Assembly: GCF_963921235.1 (NCBI RefSeq)
Contig: NC_086108.1
Location: 61,878,001-61,942,000 of the forward strand
Direction of reading: 5' to 3'
Length of the DNA stretch: 64,000 nucleotides
Origin: Mobula hypostoma
Lineage: Eukaryota
A model generated the notes under the pieces. That model was given only the letters and a program-made list of their open reading frames with translations, was not told the origin of the DNA and ran no database searches. Below are positions 5,766-33,598 of the stretch, one piece after another (position 1 is the stretch's first letter; each line of letters begins with the position of its first letter). The position numbers were made by a program, and so were the translations under genes.

Positions 5766-5904
5766 AATGCACACAGATAGCAGCAGTTCATCATGACTGT
5801 GGAGCTCCCAGACAGCAATTACTATGCACACAACTTTGGAAGTAATTCTGTTCCTTTGAACTTTTGAACTCATCACATCTCTTACTTCGTTCTCTCATTT
5901 TGTT

Positions 5905-7443
5905 ACCGGGACTGGATGAGATGTACACCAGGCTACTGTGGAAGGCGCGGGAGGAGATTGCTGAGACTCTGGCGATGATCTTTGCATCATCAGTGAGGAT
6001 AAGAGAGGTTCCAGAGGATTGGAGGGTTGCGGATGTTGTTCCATTATTCAAGAAAGGGAGTAGAAATAGCCAAGGAGATTATAGACCGGTGAGTCTTACT
6101 TCAGTGGTTGGTAAGTTGATGGAGAAGATCCTGAGAGGCAGAATTTATGAACATTTGGAGAGGCATAATGTAATTAGGAATAGTTAGCATGGCCTTGTCA
6201 AAGGCAGGTCGTGCCTTACGAGCCTGATTGAATCTTTTGAGAATGTGACTAAACGCATTGATGAAGGTAGAGCATTAGATGTAGTGTATATGGATTTCAG
6301 CAAGGCATTTGATAAGGTACCCCGTGCAAGGCTTATTGAGGAAGCAGGAGGCATGGGATCCAAGGGGACACTGCTTTGTGGATCCAGAACTGGCTTGCCC
6401 ACAGAAGGCAAAGAGTGATTGTAGACTGATCATATTCTGCATGGAGGTTGGTGACCAGTGGTGTGCCTCAGGGATCTGTTCTGGGACTCCTACTCTTCGT
6501 GATTTTTATACATGACCTGGATGAGGAATTGGAGGGATGGGTTAGTAAATTTGCTGATGGCACAAAGGCTGGAGGTGTTGCGGATAGTGTGGAAGGCTGT
6601 CAGAGTTTACAGCGGGACATTGATAGAAAGCAAAACTGGACTGAGAAGTGGGAGATGGAGTTCAACCCAAGTAAGCGTGAGGTGGTTCATTTTGGTAGAT
6701 CAAATATGATGGCAGAATATAGTATTAATGGTAAGACTCTTGCCAGTGTGGAGGATCAGAGGGATCTTGGGGTCCAAGTCAATAGGATGCTCAAAGCTGC
6801 TGCACAGGATGACTCTGTGGTTAAGGAAACATATGGTGCATTGGCCTTCATCAATTATGGAACTGAGTTTAAGAGCCGAGAGGTAATGTTGCAGCTATAT
6901 AGGACACTGGTCAGACCCCACTTGGAGAACTGTGCTCAGTTCTGGTTGCCTCACTATAGGAAGGATGTGCAAACCATAGAAAGGGTGCAGAGGAGATTTA
7001 CAAGGATGTTGCCTGGATTGGGGAGCATGCCTTATTAGAATAGGTTGAGTGAACTCGGCCTTTTCTCCTTGGAGCAACAGAGGATGAGAGGTGGTCTGGT
7101 AGATATGTATAAGATGATGCGAGGCATTGATTGTGTGGATAGTCAGAGGCTTTTTCCCAGGGCTGAAATGGCTAGCACAAGAGGACACAGTTTTAAGGAG
7201 CTGATTGGAAGTAGGTACAGAGGAGATGTCGAGGAATGTTTTTTACACAGAGAGTGGTGAGTGTGTGGAATGGGCTGCTGGTGACAGTGGTGGAGGCAGA
7301 TACAATAGGTACATGGAGCTCAGAAAAATAGAGGGCTATGGGTAACCCTAGGTAATTTCTAAAGTAAGGACATGTTCAGCACAGCTTTGTGGGCTGAAGG
7401 GCCTGTATTGTGCTGCAGATTTTCTATGTTTCTATGTTTCTAT
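5905..7443 (+). mobile_element. 5'-truncated CR1 LINE (RT domain to 3' tail), pseudogenic
   Basis: [29 protein letters not shown] and RPHLENCAQFW motifs. (TTTCTATG)n tail at 7421-7442. Same subfamily as 50190-51530. Confidence 0.95.
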
Positions 7444-13839: not shown

Positions 13840-14137
13840 ACAATAGCACACTTAATGTCGTTTGACAGGAGCTTTGAAAAGATCCCAGATAGCAGATTAG
13901 TCAGTAAGGTAAAATCCAAAGGAGGAATGGCAAGTTGGATCAAAAATAAGCTGAATAGCATACACCAAGGGGTATTGATCGATTGATGGAGATGTTTAAA
14001 ACATGGCAACTTTTTCAGTGAAGTTTCCCAGCCATCCTTGCTTTTTGTAATATATATTTGTGATTAGACCAAAATGGAGGAGCATCCTTAAGAAACTTGC
14101 ATATGATAGAGAAAACTTCTGCCACAAGGTTAATTGT
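13840..14137 (+). mobile_element. Ancient CR1 RT fragment, left half of the provirus target site (continues at 27907-27960)
   Basis: Decayed KAFDKVP...WI...KFADD region ending AAGGTTAATTGT. Joined to AAGGAAGAAAGC at 27911 it reads KVNC-KEES, like CR1 KVNCEED. Confidence 0.65.
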
Positions 14138-14396
14138 TCTGATGGCACTGGGTTTGCTGACCACGAAGTTCAAAACTCTTATGAAGATCTTAAGCCCTAT
14201 CCGATATAGATAGCTACAGGAATCCTCACTAAAGGGAGGTTATACTGCAACCACCTACTCTACAAAAGCTAGTTCATTTCCCTGTTTATCCTTCACAGGG
14301 AGTTGAGCTGCCGATATCCATAATTTGAGCAGTGTGCCCCCATCCCAACCAAGGAGGATATGCTTCCAGCTGACAAAGTAGATTAAACACAGTTCA

Positions 14397-14402
14397 TTTA
14401 TT
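14397..14402 (-). terminator. LTR polyadenylation signal AATAAA (also at 27255-27260 in the 5' LTR)
   Basis: TTTATT on the + strand, conserved in both LTR copies about 260-270 nt from the U5 end. Confidence 0.6.
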
Positions 14403-14602
14403 TATAGTGATACATGTTTAAATTTAGATAAATTCTTAAATCATATTTAAAACTTAGAGGATTTCTATCTTATAAAAGATAAAAAGATTACAAAGGATTT
14501 CCAAAACACAGGTACAATTCCTATAAGCTAAAAATACATACCAACAAGTTGCAGATGAACAAATTGTCCATTGCAGAAATCAAAAGCAGAGGAATGGATT
14601 CT

Positions 14603-14681
14603 AGTTTACCTCGTCTTTCTCTCATTCTTCTTGTTGTTCCTTGACCGTTCCTCACAGCCTGACTGCTCTCACACATTTATA
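14603..14681 (-). promoter_or_regulatory. Putative LTR TATA box (14675-14681) and R-region major splice donor (GAG|GTAAACT, about 14603-14612)
   Basis: Minus strand TATAAAT followed about 65 nt downstream by GAGGTAAACT. Foamy viruses place the major splice donor early in R. Confidence 0.5.
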
Positions 14682-14771
14682 CTGTGTTTTTTTTATCACT
14701 TTGGTGACTTCATGTGATTTTTTTTTCAGATACCTTTTCACATAGGTGGTCTAAAAGCTTCTGGGGACAGA

Positions 14772-15865
14772 CTTCTGCTGTCATCAATGACGCCCTCACG
14801 CGCATCTCCTCCATTTCCCGCACTTCGGCCCTCACCCCATCTTCCCGCCATCACAACAGGGACAGAGTTCCCCTTGTCCTCACCTACCACCCCACCAGCC
14901 TCCGGATCCAGCGCATTATCCTCCACAACTTCCCCCACCTTCAACAGGGCCCCACCACTAAGCACACCTTTCCCTCTCCACCCCTCTCCGCCTTCCGCAG
15001 GGATCGGTCCCTCCGCGACTCCCTGGTCCACATATCCCTTCCCACAGATCTCCCACCTGGCACTTATCCCTGTAAGCGCAAGTGCTACACCTGTCCCTAC
15101 ACTTCCTCTCTTGTCACCATTCAGGGCCCCAAACAGTACTTCCAAGTGAGGCAACACTTCACTTGTGAGTCTGTTGGGATGATCTATTGTAACTGGTGCT
15201 CCCGGTGTGGCCTCCTCTACATCGGTGAAACCCGACGCAGATTGGGGGACCGCTTCGTCGAGCACCTCCGCTCCATCCGCCACAACAGACAGGATCTCCT
15301 AGTAGCCACCCACTTCAACTCTGCTTCCCACTCCCATTCAGATATGTCCATACATGGCCTCCTCTACTGCCATGATGAGGCTAAACTCAGGTTGGAGGAA
15401 CAGCACTTCATATACCGTCTAGGTAGTCTCCAGCCCCTTGGTATGAACATAGAATTCTCCAAGTTCTGGTCATTCCCTCCCCCTCCCTTTCTCTATCCCT
15501 ATGTCACTCTGCCCCCTCCCCCAGCTGCCTACCACCTCCCACTTGGTTCCACCTCCTTCACTATCCATTGTGCGTTCCCCTTTTCCTTCTTCACCTTTCC
15601 TGCCTATCACCTCCCTGCTTCCCCTCCCCCACCCCTTTACCTTCCCTCTTACTGTTTTTTCACCAGGAACCTACCAGCCTTCTCCTTCCCACCCTTCCCC
15701 CACCTTCTTTATAGGGCCTCTGCCCCTTCCCTCTACAGTCCTGACGAAGGATTCTGGCCCGAAATGTCGACCGATCGTTTCCACAGATGCTGCCCGACCT
15801 GCTGAGCTCCTCCAGCATGTTGTGAGTGCTGCTTTGACCCCAGCATCTGCAGAATATTTTGTGTT
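14772..15865 (+). mobile_element. Penelope-like element 3' portion (GIY-YIG endonuclease region and terminal repeat)
   Basis: ORF 14714..15805 has CKRKCYTC, IYCNWCSRCGLLYIGETRRRLGDRFVEH, VATHF and GMN motifs typical of the PLE GIY-YIG domain. Confidence 0.92.
15736..15773 (+). ncRNA. Minimal type I hammerhead ribozyme motif in the Penelope terminal repeat (slightly decayed)
   Basis: CAGTC-CTGACGA-AGGATTCTGGCCC-GAAAT-GTC-GACCG. Confidence 0.6.
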
Positions 15866-15883
15866 AGTGAATATCCATCACAA

Positions 15884-15904
15884 TCCTCCCCATTCCCACT
15901 CCTT
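15884..15904 (-). promoter_or_regulatory. Polypurine tract of the provirus
   Basis: Minus strand AAGGAGTGGGAATGGGGAGGA lies one base before TGTGATGG, the start of the 3' LTR. Confidence 0.8.
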
Positions 15905-16048
15905 GCTATGTAAAAATTTCTAATCCAGCTTCTCCCTACAGAAATCAGTTGTGCCATCAGACTTCTGCAAAAACTTCTCTTGGGAGTAGACTATCACTCC
16001 ACCAACCATTCCAGTAGGTTACCAGTGCTGGAAGACCCTGCCTTGATC

Positions 16049-16279
16049 AGATGCTCAAAGAACTCATTGAGTTCTTATTTAATTTAATATTTGATATATT
16101 TTTCTGTGATCGTATGCTTTACTTGCTATCTTATATGTGCTATATGTGCCTTGTGCTGTCTGTGACTGTTTGGTACTGCGTTTTGCACCTTGGCCCCCAG
16201 AGGAACACTGTTTCATTTGGCTGTATTCATGGGTATGCATGTATGGTTGAATGACAACTAAACTTGAACTTGAACTTGA
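16049..16279 (+). mobile_element. Short non-LTR retroelement 3' end nested in the provirus
   Basis: Ends in an (AACTTG)n tail at 16261-16278. Confidence 0.55.
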
Positions 16280-17059
16280 GTATTTCCCAATGTAGGGATT
16301 TCTGTGTGAATTTTTCTTTGTATTCATTTCCTTAATCTCAGCTGTGCACATTTCTGCAATCTCAAAGGATTGTTACCAATATAATTTTTCCATAAATGTG
16401 CAACCACAATGCATCAATGTCTATATTAGTCCATTTTTAAGATTTTCTGCCTCAGAAACAGTTTTTGCTATTTCCTTGATGCAAGTTTGGATCACTGTCT
16501 GTCGCTGTTAGTTCATCAGGTCAGCTGGTAATGTCTTTCAATAAACCGAAGATAGTTCATTTCTTTCACAGGAGTGTTGGCATTGCTTTGGATACGGTGC
16601 AAAATTTTATTCAGATTTTCCAAGAACAAGTCTTGTAAACAATTTACTAATTACATATGGCTGTATTCTTTTGCCTAAGTATTACATTTTAGTTACAGTC
16701 AGTTACACAATTTCACAACATAATAAAAATCATAGTGGATAATCATCACTTATTGAGGTAACCTGCCTCAATATGTGTAGTGAGGTAAGGACAAGTATAT
16801 TACTCCTCTAGAGGATTCTTTCTGTTCTTTTAATTTTGGATGACCAGATAAAAAGGTGTCAGAACATAGGGATTTGTTATTTCTCTCCAATGGGAGTGAA
16901 CACCCATTGGTGTGCTGTAGCTTGGCATTTTGATACCATCTCCATAAATTTCTTCCCATTTTGATGATTCTGGACTCTAGTTGTAATTGTCCAGGTCTCC
17001 CCACTCCCTCCCCATTTATTTTGTTAAGGATTGGACCTGACTGAGAAGAATGACACACC

Positions 17060-17648
17060 CTGAAAAATGAAGTGGCTCTGGAGACGGGTTGAAGGTCAGT
17101 GTCAGGGCAGGAAATCGGTGTGAAATGGTAGATGGAAGATCTAAGGCTGTGTGCCCAAAGACCTGAGATCTTTGGGCACAGAGCTCAGAAAAAGCGACGC
17201 AACGGACTTCTAACATCGTAAACCAGTGAGTTGTTTGTCATGTCACCCCTCTCGCTGTGGAACAGAGACACTCCTTTCTCCCTTATTAGGAAGAGAGAGA
17301 GAGCCTGTGGTATGTCAAATACTGGGTGAATGAGCAGTCTTTGGAGTACTGCAAGTCTGTGTCTTTGCTGTTGCTTTGCTCACGCTTGAGTGCTCAGTGC
17401 CAGGTGCCAATGCTTTTTTTTGCTGGTGGGGGTGGGGGGATTGTTGCTTGCTGCCACTTACACACAGGAGAGAGGGGAGCTGGGGGTACTTTGGGGTTCT
17501 AACGTTCAACTGTCATTCATTCTTTGGGGCATTCCTCTGTTTTTCGTGGATGGTTGCAAAAAAAAAAAGCATTTCAGGATGTATATTGTAAACACTTCTC
17601 TGACATTAAATGTATCTTTGAAACTTTGAAACTTCAAAACTTCAAAAC
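17060..17648 (+). mobile_element. Non-autonomous retroelement (SINE-like) nested in env
   Basis: GC-richer body ending in ATTAAA plus a tandem (CTTTGAAA/CTTCAAAA) tail at 17617-17648. Confidence 0.55.
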
Positions 17649-17803
17649 CTTCACACTTTTGTGTTTTCCCAGAAAACTTTAACTGCGCACGGGCTACCAG
17701 TCTGTTCTATTAGACCATGGGATTTTGTCAACCGAATATTCTGATTCTGCTTGAAACGTTAAGAATAACACAAATGGCAGTATTGGTAGGCTGAGTGGTC
17801 CCA

Positions 17804-18188
17804 CAAGGGGTGATTTACAAGTTCGTGGCCTAAGGTAGAAGGAGTCAGTTTTAGAAAACCAAGCACATTTAATTTTCAACATAGTCCCCTCCTTCATGTA
17901 CACACACAGTTCCAGCGGTCGTGGAGCATACGGATCTTGGACGTCCAGAAAGTGTCCATAGTGAGGGTGATTGATAAGTTCGTGGCCTAAGGTAGAAGGA
18001 GATGAGTTATTAATTTCAAACTTTCTGCGTAATCACTCAAAGCATTGAACTGCATGTGCATGTAACGAGAGCCGTATAACTCATCTCTTTCTAAGTGTAG
18101 GAGGGGACTATGTTGAAAAATAAATGTGCTCGGTTTTCTAAAATTGACTCCTTCTACCTTAGGCCACGAACTTATCAATCACCCCTTG
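17804..18188. mobile_element. Mariner-derived MITE with a third, internal TIR copy
   Basis: Termini CAAGGGGTGAT...AAGTTCGTGGCCTAAGGTAGAAGG and its reverse complement, followed by TA. Internal TIR copy at 17962-18000. Confidence 0.85.
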
Positions 18189-18354
18189 TATGTAATATCT
18201 AAATAGGTGAGTAAAAAGATGTTTGTCGACTCATCTTTCTGTGGGATTGTGTAATTAGACCAATTATTTGCAACATCCCAACTCCCGACCACAACTGCCC
18301 CACCCCCAAGATGAGGCAAGAATCATGCATACCCTTTCACAAAGTTAGTGATCA

Positions 18355-18870
18355 GGACTAAGAAACGAAGAGGACAAGGATAACATGATTAAGGCAGTCC
18401 CCGCACTTCGCTCTTCTGGGGCTGAAGATGAACTGGAGGAATGGATAAAAGACGAGTACGAGGCAGTGCTTAGCAAAGTAGACATACTTTGCAGGGTACT
18501 GCAGGTCAGATATTGGATTTGGTGGAGTCCTGAGAGTGGAGCCGTTATACAAAAGGCAGAAGCCACCTAAAATCTCTCATTGCTGGCTTCAATATTTCAA
18601 CAGAAAGAGCACTATAAAATAATAGTACCATGGCTAGAGGAATCATGCATTGGAAAACTGCAAGAAAAGATCTTATTACCCAATTTAACGTAGTGTCAAT
18701 TCTCCCAGAGACTGTATTCACTGCTGCAGAAGTTAAAACAGCAACATCCGGAAAGGTCAAAGCTATTGTTTGACCTGCAGTCAGGGAATTAGTATAGATT
18801 TAGAAGGAAAACTGTGAAAGGAGGTACCTTTCTCATCTGATTGTGTATTGAGAAATATTCTTTTGATTTA
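18355..18870 (+). pseudogene. Gag-like pseudo-ORF (possibly the foamy Gag central domain) in inverted orientation inside env
   Basis: One frame with 2 stops reads IKAV...DELEEWIKDEYEAVLSKVDILCRVLQ...RLYSLLQKLKQQH, resembling PFV Gag IRSV...REIPIWLGRNAPAI...DLRCRIIN...QLGNVIKGIVDQEG. Confidence 0.4.
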
Positions 18871-18874
18871 AATG

Positions 18875-19280
18875 AGATTTTTCTAGACAAATATCAGGTC
18901 CTTCTAGAATATTCTTTGTTGCCTCTATAATGAATCTTTCCTTAAAACCAGACTTGCATTTTTGTCCTGAGCTACGCATCATGAATTAAATAATCAGATT
19001 ACTCCATGAGCCATTTCCTTTATAAACCTCCGATATTGGTATGTCTGAACAATTTTTGTCATCAGAAATTTTTATCTTCTGAGTGAACTGAAAGATCACA
19101 TCAGTGTTACTCTGAGAGTGAACACTCAATGCCATGGCTGTACAGGCAGTTTTACTCTAATATTTTTTAAAATAACATGAAAAATTGTTAAGGGCTAAAT
19201 TGTTGGTTTTTGCTTGTGATAATAATACCATGCAATTGAATACATGGGAATAATTGAAGGTTTGTCTGTGTAACGTTACA
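18875..19280 (-). pseudogene. env: Foamy-like Env SU C-terminal remnant
   Basis: ACTAMALSVHSQSNTDVIFQFTQKIKISDDKNCSDIPISEVYKG parallels PFV ECKLASKAYGIDTVLFSLKNFLNYTGTPVNEMPNARAFVG. Confidence 0.5.
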
Positions 19281-19282
19281 TA

Positions 19283-21232
19283 CAATGCATATTCTGCCCC
19301 CACAACTATTTTCACATTTTACTGTCTCATTTTCTAAATTTAAAATATATTGAAGTTCAACTTTTGAGCTAACCTACAAAACATCGTGCATCGCATCGAA
19401 TAAAAGTAAAATTTCCAAAACCTAAAAAATTAAAAACCAAAATCGTGAAGCTGAAAAAATATTCATCCCCTTTGTAATTACTACACTAATTTAGAGTTAT
19501 AAATCTAGTCGGCTTCATCTTGCGTACTGGCTTACAAAGTACCCAGGACATCTTCAGGGAGCGGTGTCTCAGAAAGGCAGTGTCCATTATTAAGGACCTC
19601 CAGTACCCAGGGCATGTCCTTTTCTCACTGTTAGCATCAGGTAGGAGGTACAGAAGCCTGAAGGCACACACTCAGCGATTCAGGAACAGCTTCTTCCCCT
19701 CTGCCATCCAATTCCTAAATGGACATTGAACCCTTGGACACTACCTCACTTTTTTTACTATACAGTATTTCTGTTTTTTGCATGTTTTTTAATTTATTCA
19801 ATATACATATACTGTAATTGATTTACTAATTTATCATTATTATTTATTTTACTTCTCTTCTATATTATGTATTGCTGCTACTAAGTTAACAAATTTCACG
19901 TCACATGCAGGCGATTATAAACCTGATTCCAATTCTGATTTCCTTAGGTGCAATACTGAATATTACCTTACCAATCTGTCAATGTAGAAAATTGGAGGGT
20001 CACCTATTTTCAATGAAGTCATAACAATAAATACCACTCTATCAGTAAGATCCAATGGTATGGTAGAATTTCAAGAGACCAAACCAAAATGAAAACAAAA
20101 GAGCATTCAAGACAAGTCAGGGAAATGATAATAAAGAAGCACAAATCTGGGGAAAAGGATTAGACCATCTTAAAAGCACTGAACTTAACTCAGAGCACCA
20201 TGGAGTCCATCATGAAATAGTGGGAAAAAATATGAAACCACAGTCACACTGCCCAGGTCAGGCCGCCCCTCTAAATTTAGCCGCAGGAGAAGAATACCAC
20301 TTATAAGAGACCCTACTGTGACACCATCAGTCAATCTGAATGAGCTGCAGAAGTCAGTGGTTGCAACTGCAGATGCATTTCCTATCTCCACAATCTCCTC
20401 GGTCTTGCACAAAAAGGGTACTTATGGAAGAGTGGCAAGGAAGAAGCCTTGGCTGAAGAAAATGTATCCTTGCCCATAAAGACTTTGAAAAGCATCACTT
20501 GGGAGATACTGTAAAGACTTGTAAGAAGGTCTTGTGGTCGGATGAGCCAAAAGTAAACTTTTTGGCCTCAACACTAAAAAGTATGTGTGTCTTAAATCTA
20601 ATACTGTGCATCAACCAGTAAACACCACCCCTACCATAAAGAATGGCAGAGGTAGCATCATGCTATGGGAATACCTTTCAGCAACAGAGACTGGAAAATC
20701 CGGTCAGGATTGGAAAATCCGGTCAGGATTGATGGGAAGATGAATGCTGCTATTTACAGAGAAATCCTGGATAAAAACCTGCTAGCTTAAAATGGGGCGG
20801 ATGTTTGTCTTTCAGCAGGACAATGACCCAAAGCACACTGCCAGAGCATCACCAGAGTGACTTCAAATGAAGAAAGTTGTCCTTGAGTAGCTTAGTGAGA
20901 GTCTGAGCCTAACCCGATCAAATATCTCTGGTAAGGCCTTGAGAATGCTGTCCACCGCCACTCCCCAACTAACCTGGCACAGCTTGAGTACTTCGGAGGA
21001 GGAATAGGCAAATCTTGCTCCATCATGTTGTGCAAAGCTAATAGAGGCTTTTCCAAAAAGACTACAGGCTGCAATAATTGCGAGAGGTGATTAACACTGA
21101 GCAATGGGGAATGAATACTTTGGAACTGCTGGTATTTCAGTTTTGAGTTTTTAGTTTGTCATGCTTTACAATTTTACCTGATTTAGGGCTCTACTGTGGG
21201 AAAAAAAGGAGCACGTGATTCACATGTGACTG
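19283..21232 (+). mobile_element. Tc1-like DNA transposon with decayed transposase (about 20088-21090) and a nested Rex1/Babar 3' fragment (about 19490-19940)
   Basis: MKTKEHSRQVRE, LPRSGRPSK, VLWSDE and FQQDNDPKH motifs. Inverted inner repeats AAAATATTCATCCCC (about 19456-19470) and GGGGAATGAATACTTTT (about 21106-21121). Confidence 0.9.
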
Positions 21233-21239
21233 TTCAACT

Positions 21240-21550
21240 AAAAGCAAGTAGGAAATCCAGGTGGGTACAATAAAATCTCTAAAGAGCTCATTTGACTTCT
21301 CAGTTTCATCTCACCAGGGAGGAAAACATTTTTTTTTATTTTACCTTCTGCTTCAGTGCATCTTTCCATCTTATTTTCCCATGCAAAAATCAGATCAAGA
21401 GCTTTGCTGAGCCATTTAGAATATAAACCAGTAATGCTGCAAACTACTGTTCCTGTTACCATGACATTTAACGGTGGAGTAGAATCGTGGCCAGAATTAG
21501 AGAAGTTGAAATATCTGAAGTCTTCATAGTATGTATATTTGTATACTTGT
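21240..21550 (-). pseudogene. env: Foamy-like Env SU middle remnant
   Basis: VVCSITGLYSKW and KIKKNVFLPGEM parallel PFV LFCSDQLYSNW and LKKRALPKDW. Confidence 0.55.
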
Positions 21551-21599
21551 TTAGTATACTAAAATAAAAGTACAATGACATGTCTGTCTAAAGTAGAAG

Positions 21600-21822
21600 A
21601 GTCAATTAAAATGTTTTTTCACAATGTTCTAGTCTAACAATTTCAAAGTCATGTTTCTCATATTTCTCAATACACAAACGGATGAGCGAGGCACCTCTTT
21701 CACAAGTTTTCTCTGCAAACCCATACTAAGCCCATAACTAGCTTAACGCTCCAGCTGGAACAATAACTAAGACCTTCCCAGCTGTTGTAATTTTAACTCC
21801 TGCAGCAGCAAATACAGTTTCC
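21600..21822 (-). pseudogene. Second copy of the gag-like segment
   Basis: Reverse complement of 21660-21821 aligns to 18708-18858 (13 mismatches in the first 63 nt). It reads KLYLLLQELKLQQ...KEVPRSSVCVLRN. Confidence 0.45.
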
Positions 21823-22125
21823 ATGCAACACACACAAAATGCTGGAGGAACTCAGCAGGCCAGGCAGCATCTATAGAAAAGAGTGCAGTTGATGTTTTGG
21901 GCCGAGACCCTTCATCAGGGCTGGAGAAAAAAAGATGAGGAGTCAGAGGAAGAAGGCTGGGGGAGGGGAGGAAGAAACACAAGGTGATAGGTGAAACTGG
22001 GGGGAGGGGTGAGTGATGAGGTAAAGAGCTGGGAAGTTGATTGGTGAGAGAGATACAGGGCTGGAGAAGGGGAATCTGATAGAAGAGGACAGAAGGCCAT
22101 GGAAGAAAGAAAAGGGGGAGGATTT
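21823..22125 (-). mobile_element. Penelope terminal-repeat fragment with decayed hammerhead motif (21886-21923)
   Basis: Minus strand CAGCC-CTGATGA-AGGGTCTCGGCCC-AAAAC-ATC-AACTG, then GATGCTGCCTGGCCTGCTGAGTTCCTCCAGCATTTTGTG. Confidence 0.85.
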
Positions 22126-22129
22126 GATG

Positions 22130-22875
22130 AGTGGGACTAATCGGTGACATAACGGTGTCTGTGCTTTCCTGAAGGTCCAGAAGGATCCATGTCAGGAGAT
22201 TTCCCTACTTGGTTACCTTCAATATCTGGGCTGGAGTCTTTTAGTTTTGTTAAAGGGTCGTGAATCATTTTTGCAAGTGATTCTTTGCCTTCCCACGTAT
22301 CTATGTTCACTTCATCCGCAATGCGGTCAGAGTGAATGTTTAAGTGGACAGGAACAATCGCTTTGCCGGAGGCAAGGATGAAGGATTCCAGTGTATTAGT
22401 TCACACATGAACAAGAGGTAAGGGCCATCTGGTGATATTTAAATTAGTATCATCATTACTCACAGAGGTTCTTACTCTAATATTTTCTGAGTCATTATGT
22501 TTCGGGGTGTCCAAGCCAGATGAGGCAATTTCAGTGGCAAATACTACTTCTTCTGCTAAAGAGCAAATGGTAAGTAAGGCAGCACTGAATTATATTGTTA
22601 TGAACACAAATATTAAAAATAAAGCATAACAAGAGGAGCATTTCTTCCTGAAGTTTGAGTCTTTCTTACTCCAACAACAACAATGCATTTTGAGTGCGTT
22701 ATTCATGGGCAATACATCTATGAAATCTTCCTCAAGTGAACAGGAATCTCTATTTTTTTTAGATCTAAACATGTGCTATATCTTTTCAATACTTCTCACC
22801 ACACCTCTTCTCTCACTAGGTGTAGGGGTTTTATGGCGTACTCACATACCAGTCAAATGTAAGGGTTCCACTCAT
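22130..22875 (-). pseudogene. env: Foamy-like Env leader peptide and SU N-terminus
   Basis: Candidate start MSGTLTFDW overlapping the IN end. Hydrophobic span CYALFLIFVFITI*FSAALLTIC. Furin-like RVRTS. LNIHSDRIADEVNIDTWEGKESLAKMIHDPLTKLKD versus PFV MINSENIANNANLTQEVKKLLTEMVNEEMQSLSD. Confidence 0.7.
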
Positions 22876-23179
22876 TCTGGGGGATAAATCCTGCTGGGGC
22901 AGCTTTGATGTTCTCTATGGAGACCACTTTACTGATAGTTTTGTTTCCCCTCCCAGTCTTGATTACCACAGTCCTATCATTGATAAGCCAGGTAACAAGA
23001 CAAGAAGGTTTCTATTTAGGATGGAAACTAGAGTTAGAATTATAATTATAAATTTTGTTTTCTAGGACCCAATCCACTTTTTGTGGTATAAATACTTCCT
23101 TATCAGGTTATTTTGGTTTCTCTTGAATTCCCATAAACCCTGTCAACTCCTTGAGGAGAGATGTATCAGGTATACGCAA
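22860..23179 (-). pseudogene. pol: Foamy-like integrase C-terminal (SH3-like) domain
   Basis: SLLKEL...SFHPK*KPSCLVTWLINDRTVVIKTGRGNKTISKVVSIENIK versus PFV SLLQEI...[39 protein letters not shown]. Confidence 0.85.
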
Positions 23180-23181
23180 TA

Positions 23182-24517
23182 CAGGTGACCCCGCTTTTCG
23201 AACGTTCGCTTTAGAAAATATCACTGTTACGAAATAGCTACATTAGTACCCTGTTTTCGCTAACAGAAGGTTTTTTCACTGTTACGAAAAAAGTGACACG
23301 CGAAAAATGACGGCGTGTGGGAAAAAAAGCAGCATGCGCCCCAAGCAGCCAAGCTCCTCCCCCAGAACTGCATTCTAGCCGCCATTGCTTAAACACGTGC
23401 TTTATCTCGATTTATTTTGTGCATCCATTAGCAAGGTGAGTTCGAAGGTATCGGAAAAGCCTAAAAGAGCTCGGAAGGGTGTTACACTTAGCGTAAAACT
23501 AGACATAATTAAGCATTTCAATTGTGGTGATCGAAGTAAGGACATTGTCCGTGCATTGAACTTGCCTGCATCCACCATTCACACTATTTACACACAGAGA
23601 GAAAAAATCTTGAAAGCTGCCGATGTTACTGTTGGTTCTGCTCGTAGCAAAGTGGTCTCTCTTAGTCAGCATCCAGTAATGGATAAAATGGAAAGTCTAT
23701 TGCTTGAGTGGATTGGTGGATGTACACAACGTGGTGTTCCTTTAAGTTATCTTATACTTATGGAGAAATCAGTCAGTCTTTTTAATAAGCTGAAACAGAA
23801 AGCACTGGCCGATGGTGATGAAAGTGTTGTGAAAGTGGAATTTAAAGGTAGTCATGGGTGGTTTGATCGGTTTCTGAGGCAAGGGCAGCTTCATAGTTTA
23901 ACGTTTACCGGAGGGAGTGCTTTGGCTGATACTGAAGCTGCTGAGAGGTTCCCAGCAGAACTGAAGAAAATAATTACAGAAGGTGGTTATTGGTATAAGC
24001 AAGTGTTTAACTGTGACAAAACTGCAATTTATTGGAAAAAATTGCCGAGTAAGACATTTATTTCGAAAGAAGAAAAGCAGGCTAAGGGACACAAGGCATC
24101 GAAGGACAGGTTTACCCTAATACCTATTATTAACGCCACTAAGCTTCTACTAGGGTACCATTCAGAAAATCCGAGGGCACTTAAAGGCGTTGATAAGAAA
24201 ACACTTCCCGTTGTGTTCCATTCACATCCAAGCAGTTGGAACACCCAAGTGCTATTTTCTGAGTACATGAGCAGATACGTTAGTCCTTTTGTTGAAAAAT
24301 ACTGTTGAGAAAATAACCTCGATAATAGGTGTCTTGTGATTGTCGATAATTGTGCTGCTCATCCGCCTGATATTACCGAGTATGGCAGTAACATTCGTAT
24401 TGCGCTCTTACCGCAATACGAATGTTACTGCCATACTCGGTAATGTCAAACGGATGAGCAGCACAATTATCGACAATCACAAGACACCTATTATCGAGGT
24501 TATTTTCTCAACAGTAT
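23182..24517 (+). mobile_element. Tigger/pogo transposon, 3'-truncated, with transposase ORF 23385..24308 and a terminal foldback
   Basis: TA followed by TIR CAGGTGACCCCGC. HTH_psq and CENP-B-like HTH regions, FKGSHGWFDRF, QVFNCDKTAIYWKKLP, KDRFTL. Confidence 0.92.
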
Positions 24518-24700
24518 GGAAACAGGTCAGACTGGCCAACAGATCTCTGGTGAAGCTGTATAAGCCAATCGCCTGTACAGTCAATACAATGGATTACAGA
24601 AACAATGGTGAACTCCAACCATACCATCGAATTTGGACAATGGAGCAGGAAGTCATAAATGGCCTATGCTCCACTGGGAGCTAAGGGCCCAAGAAGAAAA
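24518..24700 (+). mobile_element. Probable RTE-type retroelement 3' end
   Basis: Ends GGCCTATGCTCCACTGGGAGCTAAGGGCCC-AAGAAGAA, resembling RTE 3' termini with a GAA tail. Confidence 0.4.
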
Positions 24701-25140
24701 TATAATCAATTTTCCACACATGCATTTGTGTAGTTGGTTTTATTTGTCTAATAGGTGGTGGGCTTGTGACTGCTCCTTTATGATAGACCAGGCATTCTTC
24801 ACAATTTGCAATAAATTGCTTCCAATCACCTAGCATGTAAGGTAACCAGTATAACATAGCTAATTTCGTATGAGTGGCTTGTCTGTCACATTAATTGTGT
24901 CCGAATCCTTGGTGGGCTTCTCAGATCAGTGCTTCCAGCTTGTGGGCAGGAGATATTTGCTTCTGTTTTCTAGGGTGGCAAACCCAAACCTTACCTTCAC
25001 CATTAGCTTCATACTTGTACGGTATTGGAAATTGTTTGGAATTGGGCTCAGTAGTATCCAGGAGAATTCTTAAAACATCGTCCCAGTTATTTTTCATTTT
25101 TTGTTTAGTTACTACTAAAAACCTGGCTTCCCTCTGCGTT
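24700..25140 (-). pseudogene. pol: Foamy-like integrase N-terminal extension and HHCC zinc-binding domain
   Basis: EAHQGFGHN*CDRQATHTKLAMLYWLPYMLGDWKQFIANCEECL...SPPPIRQIKP...WKIDYI versus PFV [40 protein letters not shown]...SGPILRPDRP...FFIDYI. Confidence 0.88.
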
Positions 25141-26024
25141 GTAAGGTCCATCCCGACAGCTTGTTTTGCTTGCTCATTGACTAGTTTATTACCGTAGCTG
25201 TGTAAGAGGCCTGCAGTATATACCAGAATGTAAAACTTGTACTAATAGTTGAATCAATAACAATTCATAAATATTCTTTCATGTGGACAAAGGTGGAAGC
25301 AGTTTACCTCTGTGTGTTCTCCATCTAATTGTTGACCAGATTGGAAGATCTCTTTCTACTGCATTCCTAACATAATTAGAGTCAGTACAGATCAAGGCTG
25401 GTTCTGTTTAATTTACATGTTTTAGACATCATTCTAGGGCTTTTGCCTCTGCTAATTGAGCTGTATGATTTTCTGAAAGATTCATGTAGTTCAAATTCAG
25501 TTTCAAATAAAAATAAATTCCTTTTATAATCCCTGCTCCTGCCTGTAGTTGAGAGGATCCATCTTTTTGGATTTCCATTGTTGATCCATCCTGGTACTGG
25601 ACTATAACTGAGAACAGTGCTCTAAAAGATGTGCTACACTGGGCCATGGAGAAGGTGGTTCTGTATCTTCCATGACAGTCAAGGATTGTAAATTATACCT
25701 CTGAGGAACATATTCCCACTTTAAGGTGTCAACTTGTAAAGTGTTTGCCATATCCCATAGCTAGTTATGGTAGCTCTCTGTTCATTTGTTGGTAATGTAC
25801 TTTTGTTTCTCAAAGCCAAAACTCTGTTTGTATAGTAATTGGTTTGTTCCCTTGCAGTGGTCATACTACAAATAAGTGTATATAACAAGACATCATTCTA
25901 AGGCAGTAAATTTCTGTTCTGTTAGAGTGAAATTATATGAGGCATAGTGTCTGGTGGCTTGTGCTTTTTCTCCCTTAATATAGCAGATGGCTACAGCAGT
26001 TTTTGGATTCACAGAACTAAGTTC
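25140..26024 (-). pseudogene. pol: Foamy-like Pol connection domain and RNase H
   Basis: YASYNFTLTEQKFTALE, YQDGS, AGAGI, NHTAQLAEAKALE, PALICTDSNYV...RDLPIW and LHSYGNKLVNEQA versus PFV YLNYVFSKAELKFSMLE, YTDGS, AGMGI, NHTAQMAEIAAVE, PVLVITDSFYV...KELPYW and IHTEGNALADKLA. Confidence 0.92.
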
Positions 26025-26880
26025 ATTAAGAACTAAATTTATATCAAACTACATACTGTATAAGTCACCATATACAACCTTGAAATTCATTTTCTTGCAC
26101 ACATACTCAATCTATCCATCAAATAATAACTTTAACAGAATCGGTGAAAGACTGCACCAACCTGGGCATTCAACCAGTGTGCAAAAGTCAACAAACTGTG
26201 CAAATACAAAAAAGAAGGAAATAATCTAATAAATAAGCAACAAATATTGAGAACATGAAAAGAAGAGTCCTTGAAAGTGAGTCCATTGGTTGCGGGAACA
26301 TTTCAGTGATAGGGCAGGTGAAGTTGAGTGAGGTTATCCCCGCTGGCTCGAGAGCCTGGTGGTTGGAGGGTACTAGCTGCTCCTTAATGTAGTGGTGTGG
26401 GTCCTAAGGCTCCTGTACTTCCTTCCTGATGGCAGCAGCGTGAAGAGAGTATGCCCTGGGTGCTGGGGGGTCCCTGATGATGGATGCTGTTTTCCTGTGC
26501 ACATTTTTCATGTAGATGTGCTCACTGGTGGAGAGGACTTCACCCATGATGGGCTGAGCTGTATCCACTACTTTTTGTAGGATTTTCTGTTCAAGCACAT
26601 TGGTCTTTCCAAACCAGGCTGTGATGCAGCCCATTAATATACTATCCACTACACACCTTTAAAAATTTGTCGAAAATTTAGATATCATGCCGAATCTTTG
26701 TGAATTCCTAAGGAAGTAGAGACTTTGCTGCGTTTTGTTCATACTTCCATTTACAAGTTGGGCCCAGGACAGATCCTCCAAAATAATAAATATTTAAACC
26801 GAGGAACTTAAAGTTGCTAACCGTCTCCACCTCTGATCCTTCGATAAGGACTGGCTCAGGGACCTCTGGCTTTCTTCAGC
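26025..26880 (-). mobile_element. Rex1/Babar-type LINE 3' fragment nested in the provirus
   Basis: DSILMGCITAWFG...LQKVVDTAQ...ASIIRDP (DUF1891-like C-terminus). Confidence 0.85.
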
Positions 26881-26962
26881 GCTACAGTGCTTGTTGAACA
26901 TGCTCCGAGTTGAACTACTGCTAAATAATGATACTCTGTAAAGTAATACTTTTGGTATAACA

Positions 26963-26980
26963 TGACCACATTGGCTGCCA
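26963..26980 (-). promoter_or_regulatory. Primer-binding site, degenerate tRNA-Lys1,2 type
   Basis: Minus strand TGGCAGCCAATGTGGTCA versus Lys1,2 PBS TGGCGCCCAACGTGGGGC (12 of the first 15 match; two changes are CpG-type). It lies 2 nt after the 5' LTR. Confidence 0.7.
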
Positions 26981-26982
26981 AC

Positions 26983-27906
26983 TCTGATTGTATTGGGTTT
27001 GCTGACCGTGAGGTTCTGAACTCTAATGAAGATCTTAAGTCCTATCTGATATAGATGGCTACAGGAATCCTCACTAAAGGGAAGTTATACTGTAAGCACC
27101 TACTCTACAAATGCTAACTTACTACCCTGATTATCCTCTGTGGTGAGTTTAGCTATCAATACCCACTAACTGAGTGGTGGAACCCCCCCCCCCACCCCTC
27201 CCCTACCGAGGAGGAGATACTTCCAGCTGATAAAAGTAGTTTAAACACAGTTCATTTATTTTTAATGATACATATTTAAATTTAGATAAAATTTTAAAAC
27301 CCGCTTAAAACTCTGAGGATTTCCATCTTGTAAATTTTTTCTAAATTACAAACTATTTCTAATACAAAGTATTTCCAAAACCAGGTACAATTCCTATAAG
27401 CTAAAAAGACATTTTCACATAGGTGGTCTAAAAGCTTCTGGGGACAGAGTTGCCAGATACTCACAATAAATGCTGTGATATTGACCTTTTGGGTACCCAA
27501 ATCTTCCAGATATTAATAGATCACCTATTTGATATCAGTCTGGTCTTTGGGCTTTCTTAAACAAAATAATTTAGCCAGTGTTGTCTGGTTTGATACAAGC
27601 CCAATTAACATAACCCCATTGTTTTACACTGCATCTCTTAAGCAGTCAGCTCCGTGCCATGGGCTTGCAGTCTGTGCTCTATAGACAGTGCTGTCCTTTT
27701 CACTTCACACTGATTATTGCTTTCCATATACATTAAGAACTGAAGACTGGCTCCCATTTATGACAAGAAGCTGAACATAGAGTATTGGCTGGAAGTTTAA
27801 CTTAAACAAAAACTAGTTTTTGGTCTCTAGAAGATTCAGCTGCTATGTTAGAAAGCTGAGCTTGGCAAAAAGCCTCCCTGGCCCTGGACAGTGAATGTCC
27901 ATCACA
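26983..27906 (-). repeat. 5' LTR of the foamy-like provirus (924 bp; lacks a ~195-bp segment kept in the 3' LTR)
   Basis: Direct repeat of 14138-15882, starting TGTGATGG on the minus strand and flanked by the TTGT TSD. Confidence 0.9.
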
Positions 27907-29119
27907 TTGTAAGGAAGAAAGCTGCCGTCTAGGAAGATGGTAACAGATGAGTCAGGTAGACAGGAGCTTGCCATCAATTACTGCTTGGGCTTTCTCTCCT
28001 CTTTCTCACTATCCACCCATTTTCCTGAGGCATTCTGCTCACTGGGGTTGGTGTAACTTTTCCCTTGTTCACTGGAACGGGCTTCTCAAGGATTCAAAGT
28101 ACATTTATTCTCAAAGTATATACACAGTATATACTCTTCTTCCCACAAACAACCATGAAACAAAAACAAAACATGGTACCCATTCAAAGAAAAGCATCAA
28201 ACCCCAACATGCAAAGCAAAAAGAAAACAAATCACGCAATGGTAAAATAAAAGAGCATACAGCACCCAGTATAAAATCCCAAACCAGATAGTCATCGAAG
28301 GAGTCAAGGCACATTCAGTCCAGCTCAGTTCAGCCCAGCCCAGTGCTGTGTCTTCATTATCTGCAGCACTGTTGTGGATTCCTTCCCATGCAATGCAACA
28401 AATTAGCTATGACACAGCTCGTCTTCTACAATAGCTGTTTAATTTTAAAGTTCTTTATTCTCAATTTTTAAGGAGTATATTGTCCATTGCTAGATAAATG
28501 GATTAAAGGCAGCCATGAAGTGTAAGACTTTAGCTTTATTTGCCAGAGCCAGCTATGTAGACACAAGCACAATCTGAACAGGTGATGCCTAATGAAATGA
28601 GACAGGTAGAAGGACTAACAAGTATTTTATTTTGTCTTCTCTTCCTGAGGAATGTTTTCTCAGATCATTAGGTTAGCATAAATCATTCAGGTACGGTTAA
28701 AAGCCCTTTGGCAGATCTTAGACTGCAGAAGTAGCCATATTATACATTAATTATTTCCACCAATCCAAGTTTCACATTGATCTTGAACAGAATTTTAAAT
28801 TTTGTCTTTACAGAATAATTTTTTTGCTTTTACACATGCCACCTTGACGTTGGCCAAGCAAACACCAGCACTTCTCAGAACTTTTATTCCTTGTCACACA
28901 AAGGGATGATTCCCCACCGATATGTACGGTGCTTCATACCAAAGCTGACGGATCTTATTGAAATTATAGTTTAGAACCTCAGGCAGCTGCTGTGGCAGAG
29001 TCTTTGCATATATTACAGTCAGAGACTAACAGACAATTAAACTACAAATGAGTTGTGGGACAAGCAGAGAATGGAAGTTGTGTTTAAGCTAAGATTGGAT
29101 CAGCCTTGACTGCTAATTC

Positions 29120-31279: not shown

Positions 31280-32650
31280 TTAATACCCAATCTATCCCAT
31301 TCTTTAAAAACTAGATTGGTCATAGAAGGTTTAAAAAATTAATTAGAAAAATGGTACTTGAAAGAGAAAATCTCGATAAACCAAAGTATTTTCTAAATTG
31401 TACCCAGATCCTCAAAGTATGTTTAACTACCAAATTGTCAGTTAATTTACTTAAAGATAAAGGAAGTGAGGATCCAAGAAGAGAAATGGGATAGATTGGG
31501 TATTAAATACTTCCAGGATTTGTTTGTTGGAGGAAGTCCCTTTTAGTTTGAGCAATTGTCAGCTAAATATAGTTTACCAAAAACCCACTTTTTTCGATAT
31601 CTACAAATTAGAGACTTTCTGCAATCTCAATTATATACATTCCCTAAAAGTCCTGATAAGAACTTATTAGATGTAATTTCTAATTTGAAACCTTTTCATA
31701 ATGGTTCAATATCCAATATTTATGGCATGTTGCTGGGAATGAGAAATGCTCCTTCAGACAAAATTAAAAATCTCTGGGGACAAGATTAACAGACTTCAAT
31801 TTCTGAAGAAACTTGGAATGAAATTTTTTAATTGGTTAACACTTCATTGTTATGTGCCCGCCACTCTCTCCTACAAGTTAAAGTGGTCCATAGGGCCCAC
31901 ATGACTAAGGATAAGCTATCTCGTTTTTATTCAGATATATTTCCCTATTGTGATAGATGTAACAACGGAGAAGCTTCACTAATTCATATGTTTTGGACAT
32001 GTCTGGGTCTTGAAAAATATTGGAAGGAAGTATTTCAAACTTTCTCTGTACTTTTCAAAGTAAATTTTAAGCCTAACCCTTTGATTGCCTTATTCGGTAT
32101 TGTTGGAGGAAAAGATATTATTTTGGAGACATCTGATTTGCCCATTTTGGCTTTTATTTCTCTTATGGCTAGGAGGGCGCTCTTGCTTAAATGGAAGGAT
32201 GTCGTTCTGCCTACTCACACTCAATGGTTACGTGATGTTATGTCATGTTTAAATTTAGAGAAGATCCATTGTTCAATTTCTGAATCTAGCCAAGACTTTC
32301 AAACATTGCGGGGACCATTTTTGAGCTATTTTCAAAACCTTTGATTTGCTGGTGTTGGCTACAGATGTTGGCTAATAACATATTTCACCATATGATAAGG
32401 ACTTTTTTTCCTTTTTTCTTTCTTTACCAAACAATTCAATCTTGGTAGTGGGTTTAGATTCTCTTTTTTTGTACAATAAAATGATCATATTTCAATATTA
32501 TGATTTAATTTAATTTACATGAATATAGGGTAATGAGATTGCAAGTGTGACTCAAATATAATGTATTTGATTTTTTTTTTACTTATAATATATCTTCGTG
32601 TACTCTATATTCTTCTATGTAGAAATCAATAAAAATATTGAAAAAAAAAG
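31280..32650 (+). mobile_element. L1-clade LINE 3' fragment inserted in Gypsy gag
   Basis: HFFRYLQIRDF, CDRCNNGEASLIHMFWTC zinc knuckle, AATAAA and poly(A) at about 32628-32649. Confidence 0.9.
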
Positions 32651-32956
32651 ATTTTATTAAAAGAACCGGTCAAAGGATGAAAACAATTCTGAATACATTG
32701 CAGAACTGTGCAAACTTTCTAAATACTTTAGAGATGGGCTTTCTGGTGCATTATGGGACAGGCTTGTGTGTGGCATGCATAGTGGAAGCACTCAAAAGAG
32801 GCTACTGTCAGAAAGAGATCTAACCTTAGAATGGGTATTGACCATTGCAATGTTATTAGAGACTGTAGCAAAGGATGTGTCAAAACTACAGAAAAAGTGT
32901 TTGGAATGTAAAATGAACAAAATGTCCCTGCATGGTGCAAAAAGCCAAAAACATCT

Positions 32957-33497
32957 TTAACATCTGCCAAATGATGCTGAGGATGTTCTACGAGTCTGTG
33001 GTGGCCAGTGCTATTATGTTTGGTGTTGTGTGCTGGGGCAGCAGGCTGAGGGTAGCAGACACCAACAGAATCAACAAACTCATTCGTAAGGCCAGTGATG
33101 TTGTGGGGATGGAACTGGACTCTCTCACAGTGGTGTCTGAAAAGAGGATGCTGTCTAAGTTGCATGCCATCTTGGTCAATGTCTCCCATCCACTATATAA
33201 TGTACTGGGTGGGCACAGGAGTACATTCAGCCAGAGACTCATTCCTCTGAGATGCAGCACAGAGCGTCATAGGAAGTCATTCCTGCCTGTGGCCATCAAA
33301 CTTTACAACTCCTCCCTTGGAGGGTCAGACACCCTGAGCCGATAGGCTGGTCCTGGTCTTATTTCATAATTTACTGGCATAATTTACATATTACTATTTA
33401 ACTATTTATGGTTCTACTACTATTTATTATTTATGGTGCAACTGTAACGAAAACCAATTTCCCCCAGGATCAATAAAGTATGACTATGACTATGACT
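32957..33497 (+). mobile_element. Rex1/Babar-type LINE 3' fragment inserted in Gypsy gag
   Basis: MFYESVVASAIMFGVVCWG...SHPL...RKSFLPVAIKLYN and a (TATGAC)n tail. Confidence 0.88.
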
Positions 33498-33598
33498 AAA
33501 TGTTATTGATGTGGCAAATCTTCCCATGACACAAATGATTGTTGGTTCAAAGAAAAAATTTGCAGAAAGTGTCATAGACAAGGTCACAGAGAGAGCAT

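What the first reader, a model, noticed from the sequence alone, without database searches (positions are those of the whole stretch)
16280..22875. Foamy-type Env architecture (LP-SU-TM) preserved in pieces
Collinear fragments show a start overlapping the IN end, an internal hydrophobic span followed by a furin-like RVRTS site, SU motifs (IHSDRIADEVN; CSITGLYSKW) and TM motifs (KIPW; LKNG). This points to the spumaviral Env rather than a gamma-type Env or the paramyxovirus-F-like Env of lokiretroviruses. The TM membrane anchor and any tas/bet-like accessory genes are not recognisable before the PPT, suggesting a 3' deletion.
Basis: partly seen in the sequence, partly recalled or inferred. Interest (0 to 1): 0.7.

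Follow-up and report, generated by a model that had tools for sequence, protein, structure and literature searches.

The report
Decayed foamy-type envelope gene fossil
This is the broken envelope gene of an old, dead provirus, likely a foamy-type retrovirus in a cartilaginous fish; its front half still lines up faintly with mammalian foamy-virus envelopes, which makes it one more fossil of a known lineage.

Summary
The interval is the env region of a decayed minus-strand provirus. It has two LTRs 17% apart, a 4-nt target duplication, and RNase H/integrase that match only foamy viruses among retroviruses; gag, protease and RT are gone.

All quoted motifs exist, but each alone scores at chance level. 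No piece matches Pfam Foamy_virus_ENV, and the X-read 5' half reaches only 7.6-16.1 bits, below the cut-off of 27. The evidence is order: with transposon insertions set aside, leader peptide and SU follow one diagonal against a profile of 16 fetched foamy Envs (49.4 bits versus at most 21.8 at 14 other offsets; 0 of 40 shuffles). One TM-ectodomain stretch (18295-17675) falls on the same diagonal. Lentiviral and betaretroviral Env controls give no on-diagonal window.

On that diagonal KIPW is out of frame and LKNG lies past the Env end. RVRTS is well placed but lacks the P4 arginine. About 3.3 kb of non-transposon DNA fits a whole Env, so a 3' deletion is not required; anchor and tas/bet are not recognisable. 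One junction is shared by 4 of 4 organisms laid. Verdict: a likely foamy-type Env fossil, new member of a known kind.

The parts
26983..27906 (-). 5' LTR
   Evidence: 77% blastn match to 14138-14539 and 95% to 14732-14774; start matches the 3' LTR start at 17 of 20
27907..27910 (.). target-site duplication, upstream copy (TTGT on +)
26963..26980 (-). primer-binding-site-like stretch, 12 of 18 to the tRNA-Lys1,2 site of the fetched foamy genomes
24520..26003 (-). pol remnant: connection, RNase H, integrase N-terminal and core part; gag, protease and RT missing upstream
   Evidence: foamy Pol profile columns 462-885 and 861-969; PDB best hits are foamy chains
22853..23170 (-). integrase C-terminal SH3 part and stop
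   Evidence: PF18103 E=0.0069; columns 1043-1123; stop at 22855-22853
22126..22847 (-). env piece 1: leader peptide with membrane span (from 22622), LP/SU boundary region, N-terminal SU; broken by stops
   Evidence: columns 62-211, 28.3 bits, 0 of 50 column shuffles; hhalign E=0.009, probability 4.5%
21822..22125 (.). insertion: high-copy retroelement tail (Penelope-like label recalled)
21660..21821 (+). inverted copy of the env stretch 18708-18858, sitting beside the retroelement tail
   Evidence: 72% over 163 columns; homology does not extend
21245..21659 (-). env piece 2: first half of the receptor-binding domain
   Evidence: columns 262-375, 20.9 bits, 1 of 50 shuffles, 0 of 60 in band; hhalign E=0.15
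19282..21244 (.). insertion: Tc1-like transposon with a nested LINE tail (labels recalled from translations)
18191..19281 (-). env piece 3: likely rest of SU, SU/TM boundary and N-terminal TM; hydrophobic 19-mer at 18667-18611 where the fusion peptide is expected
   Evidence: 9 stops in 360 codons versus 18-26 in the other five frames (Poisson p=0.0009 before correction for six frames); no profile match of its own except its last 105 nt
17804..18190 (.). insertion: MITE with terminal inverted repeats
17655..17802 (-). env piece 4: TM ectodomain (QTGSPC frame); KIPW is in another frame
   Evidence: 18295-17675 aligns to columns 715-791, offset +2, 0 of 30 shuffles; 0 of 60 and 1 of 60 in band
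17058..17654 (.). insertion: high-copy repeat fragment
   Evidence: contig depth, sequence
16280..17057 (-). env piece 5: probably the C-terminal TM and 3' untranslated or accessory DNA; register unresolved, anchor not recognisable
   Evidence: no TM register above shuffles
16051..16279 (.). insertion: LINE-like tail
15883..15905 (-). polypurine tract
14138..15882 (-). 3' LTR, interrupted at 14540-14731 and 14775-15865, about 430 nt missing
14134..14137 (.). target-site duplication, downstream copy (TTGT on +)

Best explanation
This is the dead env gene of an old provirus, likely a foamy-type retrovirus that infected the germ line of a cartilaginous fish, and it likely once made a three-part LP-SU-TM fusion protein. 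Shown: two LTRs, a 4-nt target duplication, foamy-matching RNase H and integrase, loss of gag-PR-RT, six insertions in the env region, and colinearity of the leader peptide and the first 375 profile columns with mammalian foamy Env. Weakly shown: colinearity continuing into the TM ectodomain (columns 715-791). Inferred from solved foamy Env (PMC11468914): the ancestral precursor of about 1000 residues would have kept its leader peptide in the membrane and been cut twice by furin-like proteases. It would have carried a receptor-binding domain inserted in an F-like class I scaffold and fused membranes through the TM N-terminus. Today it codes for nothing and decays with its flanks.
For: Integrase: PDB hits under E 0.5 are all foamy integrase (E=3e-11); 32% identity over 174 residues to a fetched foamy Pol. 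RNase H: top five hits foamy, E 7e-12 to 2e-10. Pol region scores 142.7 bits on the foamy profile versus 18.3 lentiviral and 21.2 betaretroviral. Env: all pieces 93.2 bits versus 69.9+/-5.8, 0 of 40 column shuffles; lentiviral control 7 of 40, betaretroviral 15 of 15. 5' half 49.4 bits at the predicted diagonal versus at most 21.8 at 14 other offsets, 0 of 40 shuffles. Sliding windows: 7 of 21 best alignments within 3 codons of one diagonal; 0 of 21 for each control Env; 0-3 for 8 column-shuffled foamy profiles. Leader span aligns to the foamy leader span. 4-nt duplication as in foamy viruses (PMC5210030). The 3' LTR-flank junction is bridged in 4 of 4 runs from four organisms.
Against: No PF03408 hit in 60 pieces; no foamy Env hit in PDB, in 1.84 billion representatives or the word search. 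HMMER gives 7.6 and 16.1 bits for the 5' half, and its frames were chosen with the same profile. With my standard profile the best hit of 1704 chunks lies outside the provirus. The lentiviral control also beats DNA shuffles, so part of the signal is composition. Piece 3 has no match over most of its length and piece 5 none in the expected register. No R-X-K/R-R in non-transposon env DNA, no GGGTG at the purine tract, PBS 12 of 18, no tas/bet. Gap settings, the softened profile and piece borders were my choices, some made after first results; nulls had 8-60 draws; windows overlap.
Confidence: 0.8

Rival explanations
1. Only the 5' half is foamy Env in register. The 3' part is shifted or chimeric: piece 3 restarts inside SU (SEYSLWE as the foamy YSLWE motif), the KIPW piece holds RIDW, piece 5 holds the C-terminal TM, and Env ends at the purine tract with the anchor lost at the 16051-16279 insertion. 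This is closest to the first reader's TM reading.
For: Best local hits with the standard profile: 18737-18702 to columns 390-401 (18.5 bits, 3 of 60), 17714-17697 to 651-656, 16793-16752 to 787-800; hhalign aligns 95 columns of piece 5 to 788-886, E=0.11.
Against: None of these passes its shuffle test in band (10-28 of 60). It needs about 120-180 extra codons. The unshifted diagonal has a TM hit at 0 of 30.
Confidence: 0.2
2. The element is a lokiretrovirus or a teleost-type foamy-like element whose Env is only distantly F-like; the colinearity reflects shared class I architecture and composition.
For: Lokiretrovirus RNase H groups with foamy RNase H (PMC7947760), so that match does not discriminate. 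RT is deleted. No tas/bet. No lokiretrovirus or fish references were available to compare.
Against: Lokiretrovirus integrase is nearer CGIN1, while this one aligns with foamy integrase from its N-terminal extension to the SH3 domain. Loki Env has a signal peptide, this one an internal span at foamy position. Teleost foamy-like Envs share no detectable homology with foamy Env (PMC5210030), whereas this one keeps a diagonal within 3 codons.
Confidence: 0.12
3. There is no recognisable env; the motifs are chance matches in decayed, transposon-filled DNA.
For: Each motif is at chance level; all library searches are empty.
Against: Position right after the integrase stop, stop-poor frames, and two separately searched pieces landing on one diagonal.
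Confidence: 0.04

Closest known systems
Cartilaginous fish endogenous foamy virus (Wang, Chen & Cui 2023, J Virol 97:e01816-22, PMC9972966)
   Same: By its title, a foamy virus endogenous in cartilaginous fish (seen only in reference lists). From recall, not from a call: found in sharks and rays and very old.
   Different: Paper not held, so identity with its lineages, its Env annotation and its accessory genes could not be compared.
Exogenous mammalian foamy viruses, Env gp130 (PF03408; PMC11468914)
   Same: Env directly after pol, internal leader span, colinear SU, similar total length, foamy integrase and RNase H, 4-nt duplication, LTR start TGTG.
   Different: Far below the PF03408 cut-off; no intact furin sites or anchor; about 350 nt of non-transposon DNA between the predicted Env end and the purine tract versus 1093-1483 nt in three fetched genomes; no GGGTG junction.
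Coelacanth endogenous foamy-like virus CoeEFV (PMC3386198)
   Same: Fish host, Env homologous to foamy Env.
   Different: Its consensus Env matches pfam03408 at E=1.3e-69 and it has two 3' ORFs; this single old copy gives only an order-dependent signal.
Teleost, newt and chimaera foamy-like ERVs (PMC5210030, PMC5512871)
   Same: Foamy-like pol, 4-nt duplication; the newt element has only 492 nt between env and LTR.
   Different: Teleost Envs show no homology to foamy Env, and some carry extra ORFs between pol and env; here env abuts pol.
Lokiretroviruses (PMC7947760)
   Same: Foamy-related RNase H; class I fusion protein of the F-like kind.
   Different: Signal-peptide Env similar to PF00523 and CGIN1-like integrase; neither is seen here, though no loki reference was compared.

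Membership tests
Foamy-like endogenous retroviruses (defined by Pol) | Pol most similar to foamy-virus Pol | tested here: met
   comparison set lacked fish, loki and other class III elements
Foamy-like endogenous retroviruses (defined by Pol) | RT phylogeny inside the foamy/foamy-like clade | not testable with these tools
   RT is deleted; pol starts at profile column 462
Foamy-like endogenous retroviruses (defined by Pol) | paired LTRs with 4-nt target duplication | tested here: met
Spumaretrovirinae proper / PF03408 Env | PF03408 match at the curated cut-off (27 bits) | tested here: not met
   0 hits in 60 pieces; 7.6 and 16.1 bits with my own profiles
Spumaretrovirinae proper / PF03408 Env | order-dependent homology to foamy Env | tested here: met
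   clear for columns 62-375, weak for 715-791, absent elsewhere
Spumaretrovirinae proper / PF03408 Env | long leader peptide with internal membrane span | tested here: met
   span from 22622, column 79, aligned to the foamy span
Spumaretrovirinae proper / PF03408 Env | R-X-X-R site between LP and SU | tested here: not met
   RVRTS at column 128 (foamy site 122-129) lacks the P4 arginine
Spumaretrovirinae proper / PF03408 Env | R-X-K/R-R site between SU and TM | tested here: not met
   only minus-strand hit lies inside the Tc1-like insertion; decay may explain it
Spumaretrovirinae proper / PF03408 Env | C-terminal membrane anchor | tested here: not met
Spumaretrovirinae proper / PF03408 Env | W-x-x-W motif in the leader N-terminus | tested here: inconclusive
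   not visible in the decayed frame; invariant in 11 aligned foamy Envs
Spumaretrovirinae proper / PF03408 Env | tRNA-Lys primer site | tested here: inconclusive
   12 of 18 at the right place
Spumaretrovirinae proper / PF03408 Env | GGGTG at the purine tract/LTR border | tested here: not met
   GGAT|TG here; GGG|TG in 7 of 8 fetched genomes shown, the eighth starts elsewhere
Spumaretrovirinae proper / PF03408 Env | tas and bet genes after env | tested here: not met
Lokiretroviruses | Env similar to PF00523 with N-terminal signal peptide | tested here: not met
   no PF00523 hit; span is internal; sensitivity is low for such decayed DNA
Lokiretroviruses | integrase closest to CGIN1 | not tested
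Gamma-type Env | CX6CC and immunosuppressive motif; TLV_coat match | tested here: not met
   none on the minus strand; no PF00429 hit; betaretroviral-profile control at null

The most novel reading that the evidence does not exclude
The ancestor was a simple foamy virus of rays: a full-length, mammal-like LP-SU-TM Env colinear with today's foamy Env, followed by only about 350 nt before the purine tract. Tas and bet would then never have been there and would be later gains, and the receptor-binding insertion in the F-like scaffold would predate the split of cartilaginous and bony fishes.
Probability: 0.25. Interest if true: 0.6.

Novelty: new member of a known kind. Interest (0 to 1): 0.3.

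Why it matters
Env homology, not Pol, separates true foamy lineages (coelacanth, tetrapods) from teleost foamy-like elements. A probable cartilaginous-fish element whose Env keeps foamy colinearity, shared at one site by several species, supports a very old origin of this fusion-protein design and bears on when tas/bet arose. A 2023 paper already reports foamy viruses in cartilaginous fish by title, and this copy is too decayed to add much alone, so the gain is modest.

Tried and rejected
Library searches with no relevant env hit: Pfam, 30 + 30 frames; PDB phmmer; word-indexed search with env piece 1 and with integrase; 1.84 billion representatives. The foamy Env alignment found only 28 exogenous mammalian foamy Envs, no fish relatives. 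An IMG/VR scan with an integrase query used the wrong frame and is uninformative. The ESM Atlas gave no result for this broken frame. No genome is held, so paralogues could not be read. AlphaFold2 of piece 3 alone: pLDDT 32, not used and not fold-searched. No RNA holder listed.

Rejected readings: piece 3 as an inverted gag-like block (stop-poor frame is on the minus strand; no gag match); the inversion extending over 600 nt (177 of 200 shuffles score as high); DNA shuffles as a null (the lentiviral control also passes); KIPW and LKNG as foamy TM motifs; a co-opted env (stops and insertions in every piece). Notes of this scan by place and by sequence were empty.
Full report
WHAT IS THERE. The interval lies inside a decayed provirus on the minus strand. 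Self-comparison gives an LTR pair (26983-27451 versus 14138-14774). Both LTRs begin TGTGATGGA, at 27906 and 15882, the latter after a purine tract. TTGT flanks the element on both sides (14134-14137, 27907-27910), and a primer-site-like stretch follows the 5' LTR (12 of 18 to the tRNA-Lys site). The LTRs differ at 69 of 401 aligned columns (K2P 0.198). Pol is foamy-like. Integrase hits only foamy integrase under E 0.5 in PDB and RNase H hits foamy chains first. The region scores 142.7 bits on a foamy Pol profile versus 18.3 and 21.2 on lentiviral and betaretroviral profiles. It starts at profile column 462, so gag, protease and RT are absent. The host is not given; a cartilaginous fish is my inference from the repeat landscape (recalled) and from unchecked notes of this scan that call the genome a ray.

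THE OBSERVATION. About half of the interval is inserted DNA: a retroelement tail plus an inverted env bit (21660-22125), a Tc1-like element with a nested LINE tail (19282-21244), a MITE (17804-18190), a repeat fragment (17058-17654) and a LINE tail (16051-16279) (family labels recalled). What remains between integrase and purine tract is 3313 nt, enough for a whole foamy Env of about 985 residues. The first ATG lies 5 nt after the integrase stop.

REFERENCES AND TESTS. No library search recognised env. A primer-site scan fetched 31 loci. I took 16 with foamy layout as references, leaving out one broken foamy-like genome (L011). Five of 5 references checked carry PF03408. Five lentivirus-like and seven betaretrovirus-like genomes were controls (labels from layout and recall; 1 of the 7 checked, PF00429). 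With HMMER and my profile, the best env-region hit was second of 1704 chunks (5.6 bits). Single motifs score 14-16 bits, which chance DNA in this window matches often. I therefore tested order with a frameshift-aware alignment, X at breaks. DNA shuffles proved too easy, since the lentiviral control also passed. Against local column shuffles, foamy Env passed (0 of 40 at two gap settings), lentiviral Env did less well (1 and 7 of 40) and betaretroviral Env failed (9 and 15 of 15). Searched separately against the whole softened profile, piece 1 hit columns 62-211 (0 of 50) and piece 2 columns 262-375 (1 of 50). Of the other five stretches, four were at null and piece 5 gave an off-register borderline hit. 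Pieces 1 and 2 share one diagonal: 49.4 bits versus at most 21.8 at 14 other offsets, 0 of 40 shuffles. In 21 overlapping windows, 7 best alignments fell within 3 codons of that diagonal, five in LP-SU and two (one stretch, 18295-17675, columns 715-791, 0 of 30) in TM. Controls gave 0 of 21 each; eight column-shuffled profiles gave 0-3, none in the 3' part. HMMER still gives only 7.6 bits (standard) and 16.1 bits (soft, E=0.005) for the 5' half, with frames chosen by the same profile. hhalign gave E=0.009 for piece 1 and 0.11-0.55 for five other frames. Settings, the soft profile and some borders were chosen after seeing first results.

The leader span, the IHSDRIADEVN region and LYSKW sit at columns 79, 174 and 323, where foamy Env has them (72-94, 173, 322). 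It carries a hydrophobic 19-mer at column 588, next to the foamy TM start (586), so it likely holds the rest of SU and the fusion peptide; that is inference, since it has no profile match of its own. On this diagonal KIPW is out of frame and LKNG lies beyond the Env end. The anchor is not recognisable in any frame. About 350 nt of non-transposon DNA would remain before the purine tract, versus 1093-1483 nt in three foamy genomes. So either about 1 kb was lost or tas/bet were never there; one copy cannot tell.

AGE AND SPREAD. Twenty-four runs were listed; I laid 4 of them, from four coded organisms. The first may be the window's own source. The 3' LTR-flank junction is bridged in 4 of 4, with 0, 11, 42 and 52 differences over about 500 nt. 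The 5' junction is bridged by one listed record (X11). The insertion thus predates the split of these organisms; LTR divergence of about 0.10 per LTR suggests roughly twice the age of the deepest split, if rates are equal (inference). Several differing contigs at env and pol sites point to a low-copy family; depth was not used as copy number.

MECHANISM. By analogy with solved foamy Env (PMC11468914), the ancestral virus would have made one precursor that keeps its leader in the membrane and is cut into LP, SU and TM. It would bind cells through a domain inserted in an F-like scaffold and fuse through the TM N-terminus. Integration by a foamy-type integrase left the 4-nt duplication. Deletion, stops and insertions then killed it. 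Shown: architecture, Pol affinity, colinearity of LP-SU, shared site. Weakly shown: TM colinearity. Inferred: processing, fold, host.

COMPARISON AND NOVELTY. It works like a foamy Env and is filed as a foamy-like endogenous retrovirus by Pol similarity. It is not filed under PF03408 or Spumaretrovirinae proper, because several defining features were tested and not met. Lokiretrovirus is unlikely but untested by tree. Foamy viruses in cartilaginous fish are in print by title (Wang, Chen & Cui 2023); I could not check whether this lineage is theirs.

WHAT I READ. Passages: PMC11468914, PMC5210030, PMC3386198, PMC5512871, PMC10581153, PMC12386078. Parts 1-2 of 4: PMC7947760. Part 1 of 4 plus passages: PMC10699275. 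Title only, rest recalled: PMC9972966 (not held). Search listings; none showed this locus, which does not prove it is unpublished. No supplements were read; their alignments of fish and amphibian Envs could change the TM register and the lineage call.

VERDICT. Observation partly confirmed, interpretation partly supported. A real but faint foamy-type Env fossil; new member of a known kind; interest 0.3.

Noticed in passing
window 21660-21821 and 18708-18858: A 162-nt inverted copy of the env stretch just before the expected SU/TM boundary sits next to the retroelement tail, apparently inserted with it. About 78% identity in aligned columns, near the LTR divergence. The junction at 21660 is bridged in 4 of 4 runs. 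Origin (same provirus or a sister copy) unresolved.
   Followed up: partly
window 26983 and 14138: Both LTRs end in ...TCAGA on the coding strand, not the usual CA, while the 4-nt target duplication is intact.
   Followed up: no
window 16996-16760 (minus): A weak second match to the N-terminal SU (columns 107-182; whole piece 23.9 bits, 0 of 50 shuffles but null maximum 23.7, one of seven pieces tested). Probably chance; unexplained.
   Followed up: partly
window 26003-26960: gag, protease and RT are missing, with a LINE-like fragment at about 26060-26880; the provirus's large deletion is here.
   Followed up: partly
window 24299-24517 and 58566-58797: Near-perfect hairpins (106-nt arms, 97%; 111-nt arms, 87%), the first at the edge of a Tigger-like insertion inside integrase (label recalled).
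   Followed up: no
window 18352-18570 (plus): A 72-codon antisense open frame with charged, helical-looking composition inside env piece 3; no Pfam hit.
   Followed up: partly
window 32600-37700 (plus): A separate decayed Gypsy-like LTR element with RT, RNase H and integrase remnants and nested LINE pieces (label recalled).
   Followed up: no
window 5846-7260, 50091-51333, 55781-56851: CR1-like LINE RT copies, one with a 356-codon open frame (label recalled).
   Followed up: no
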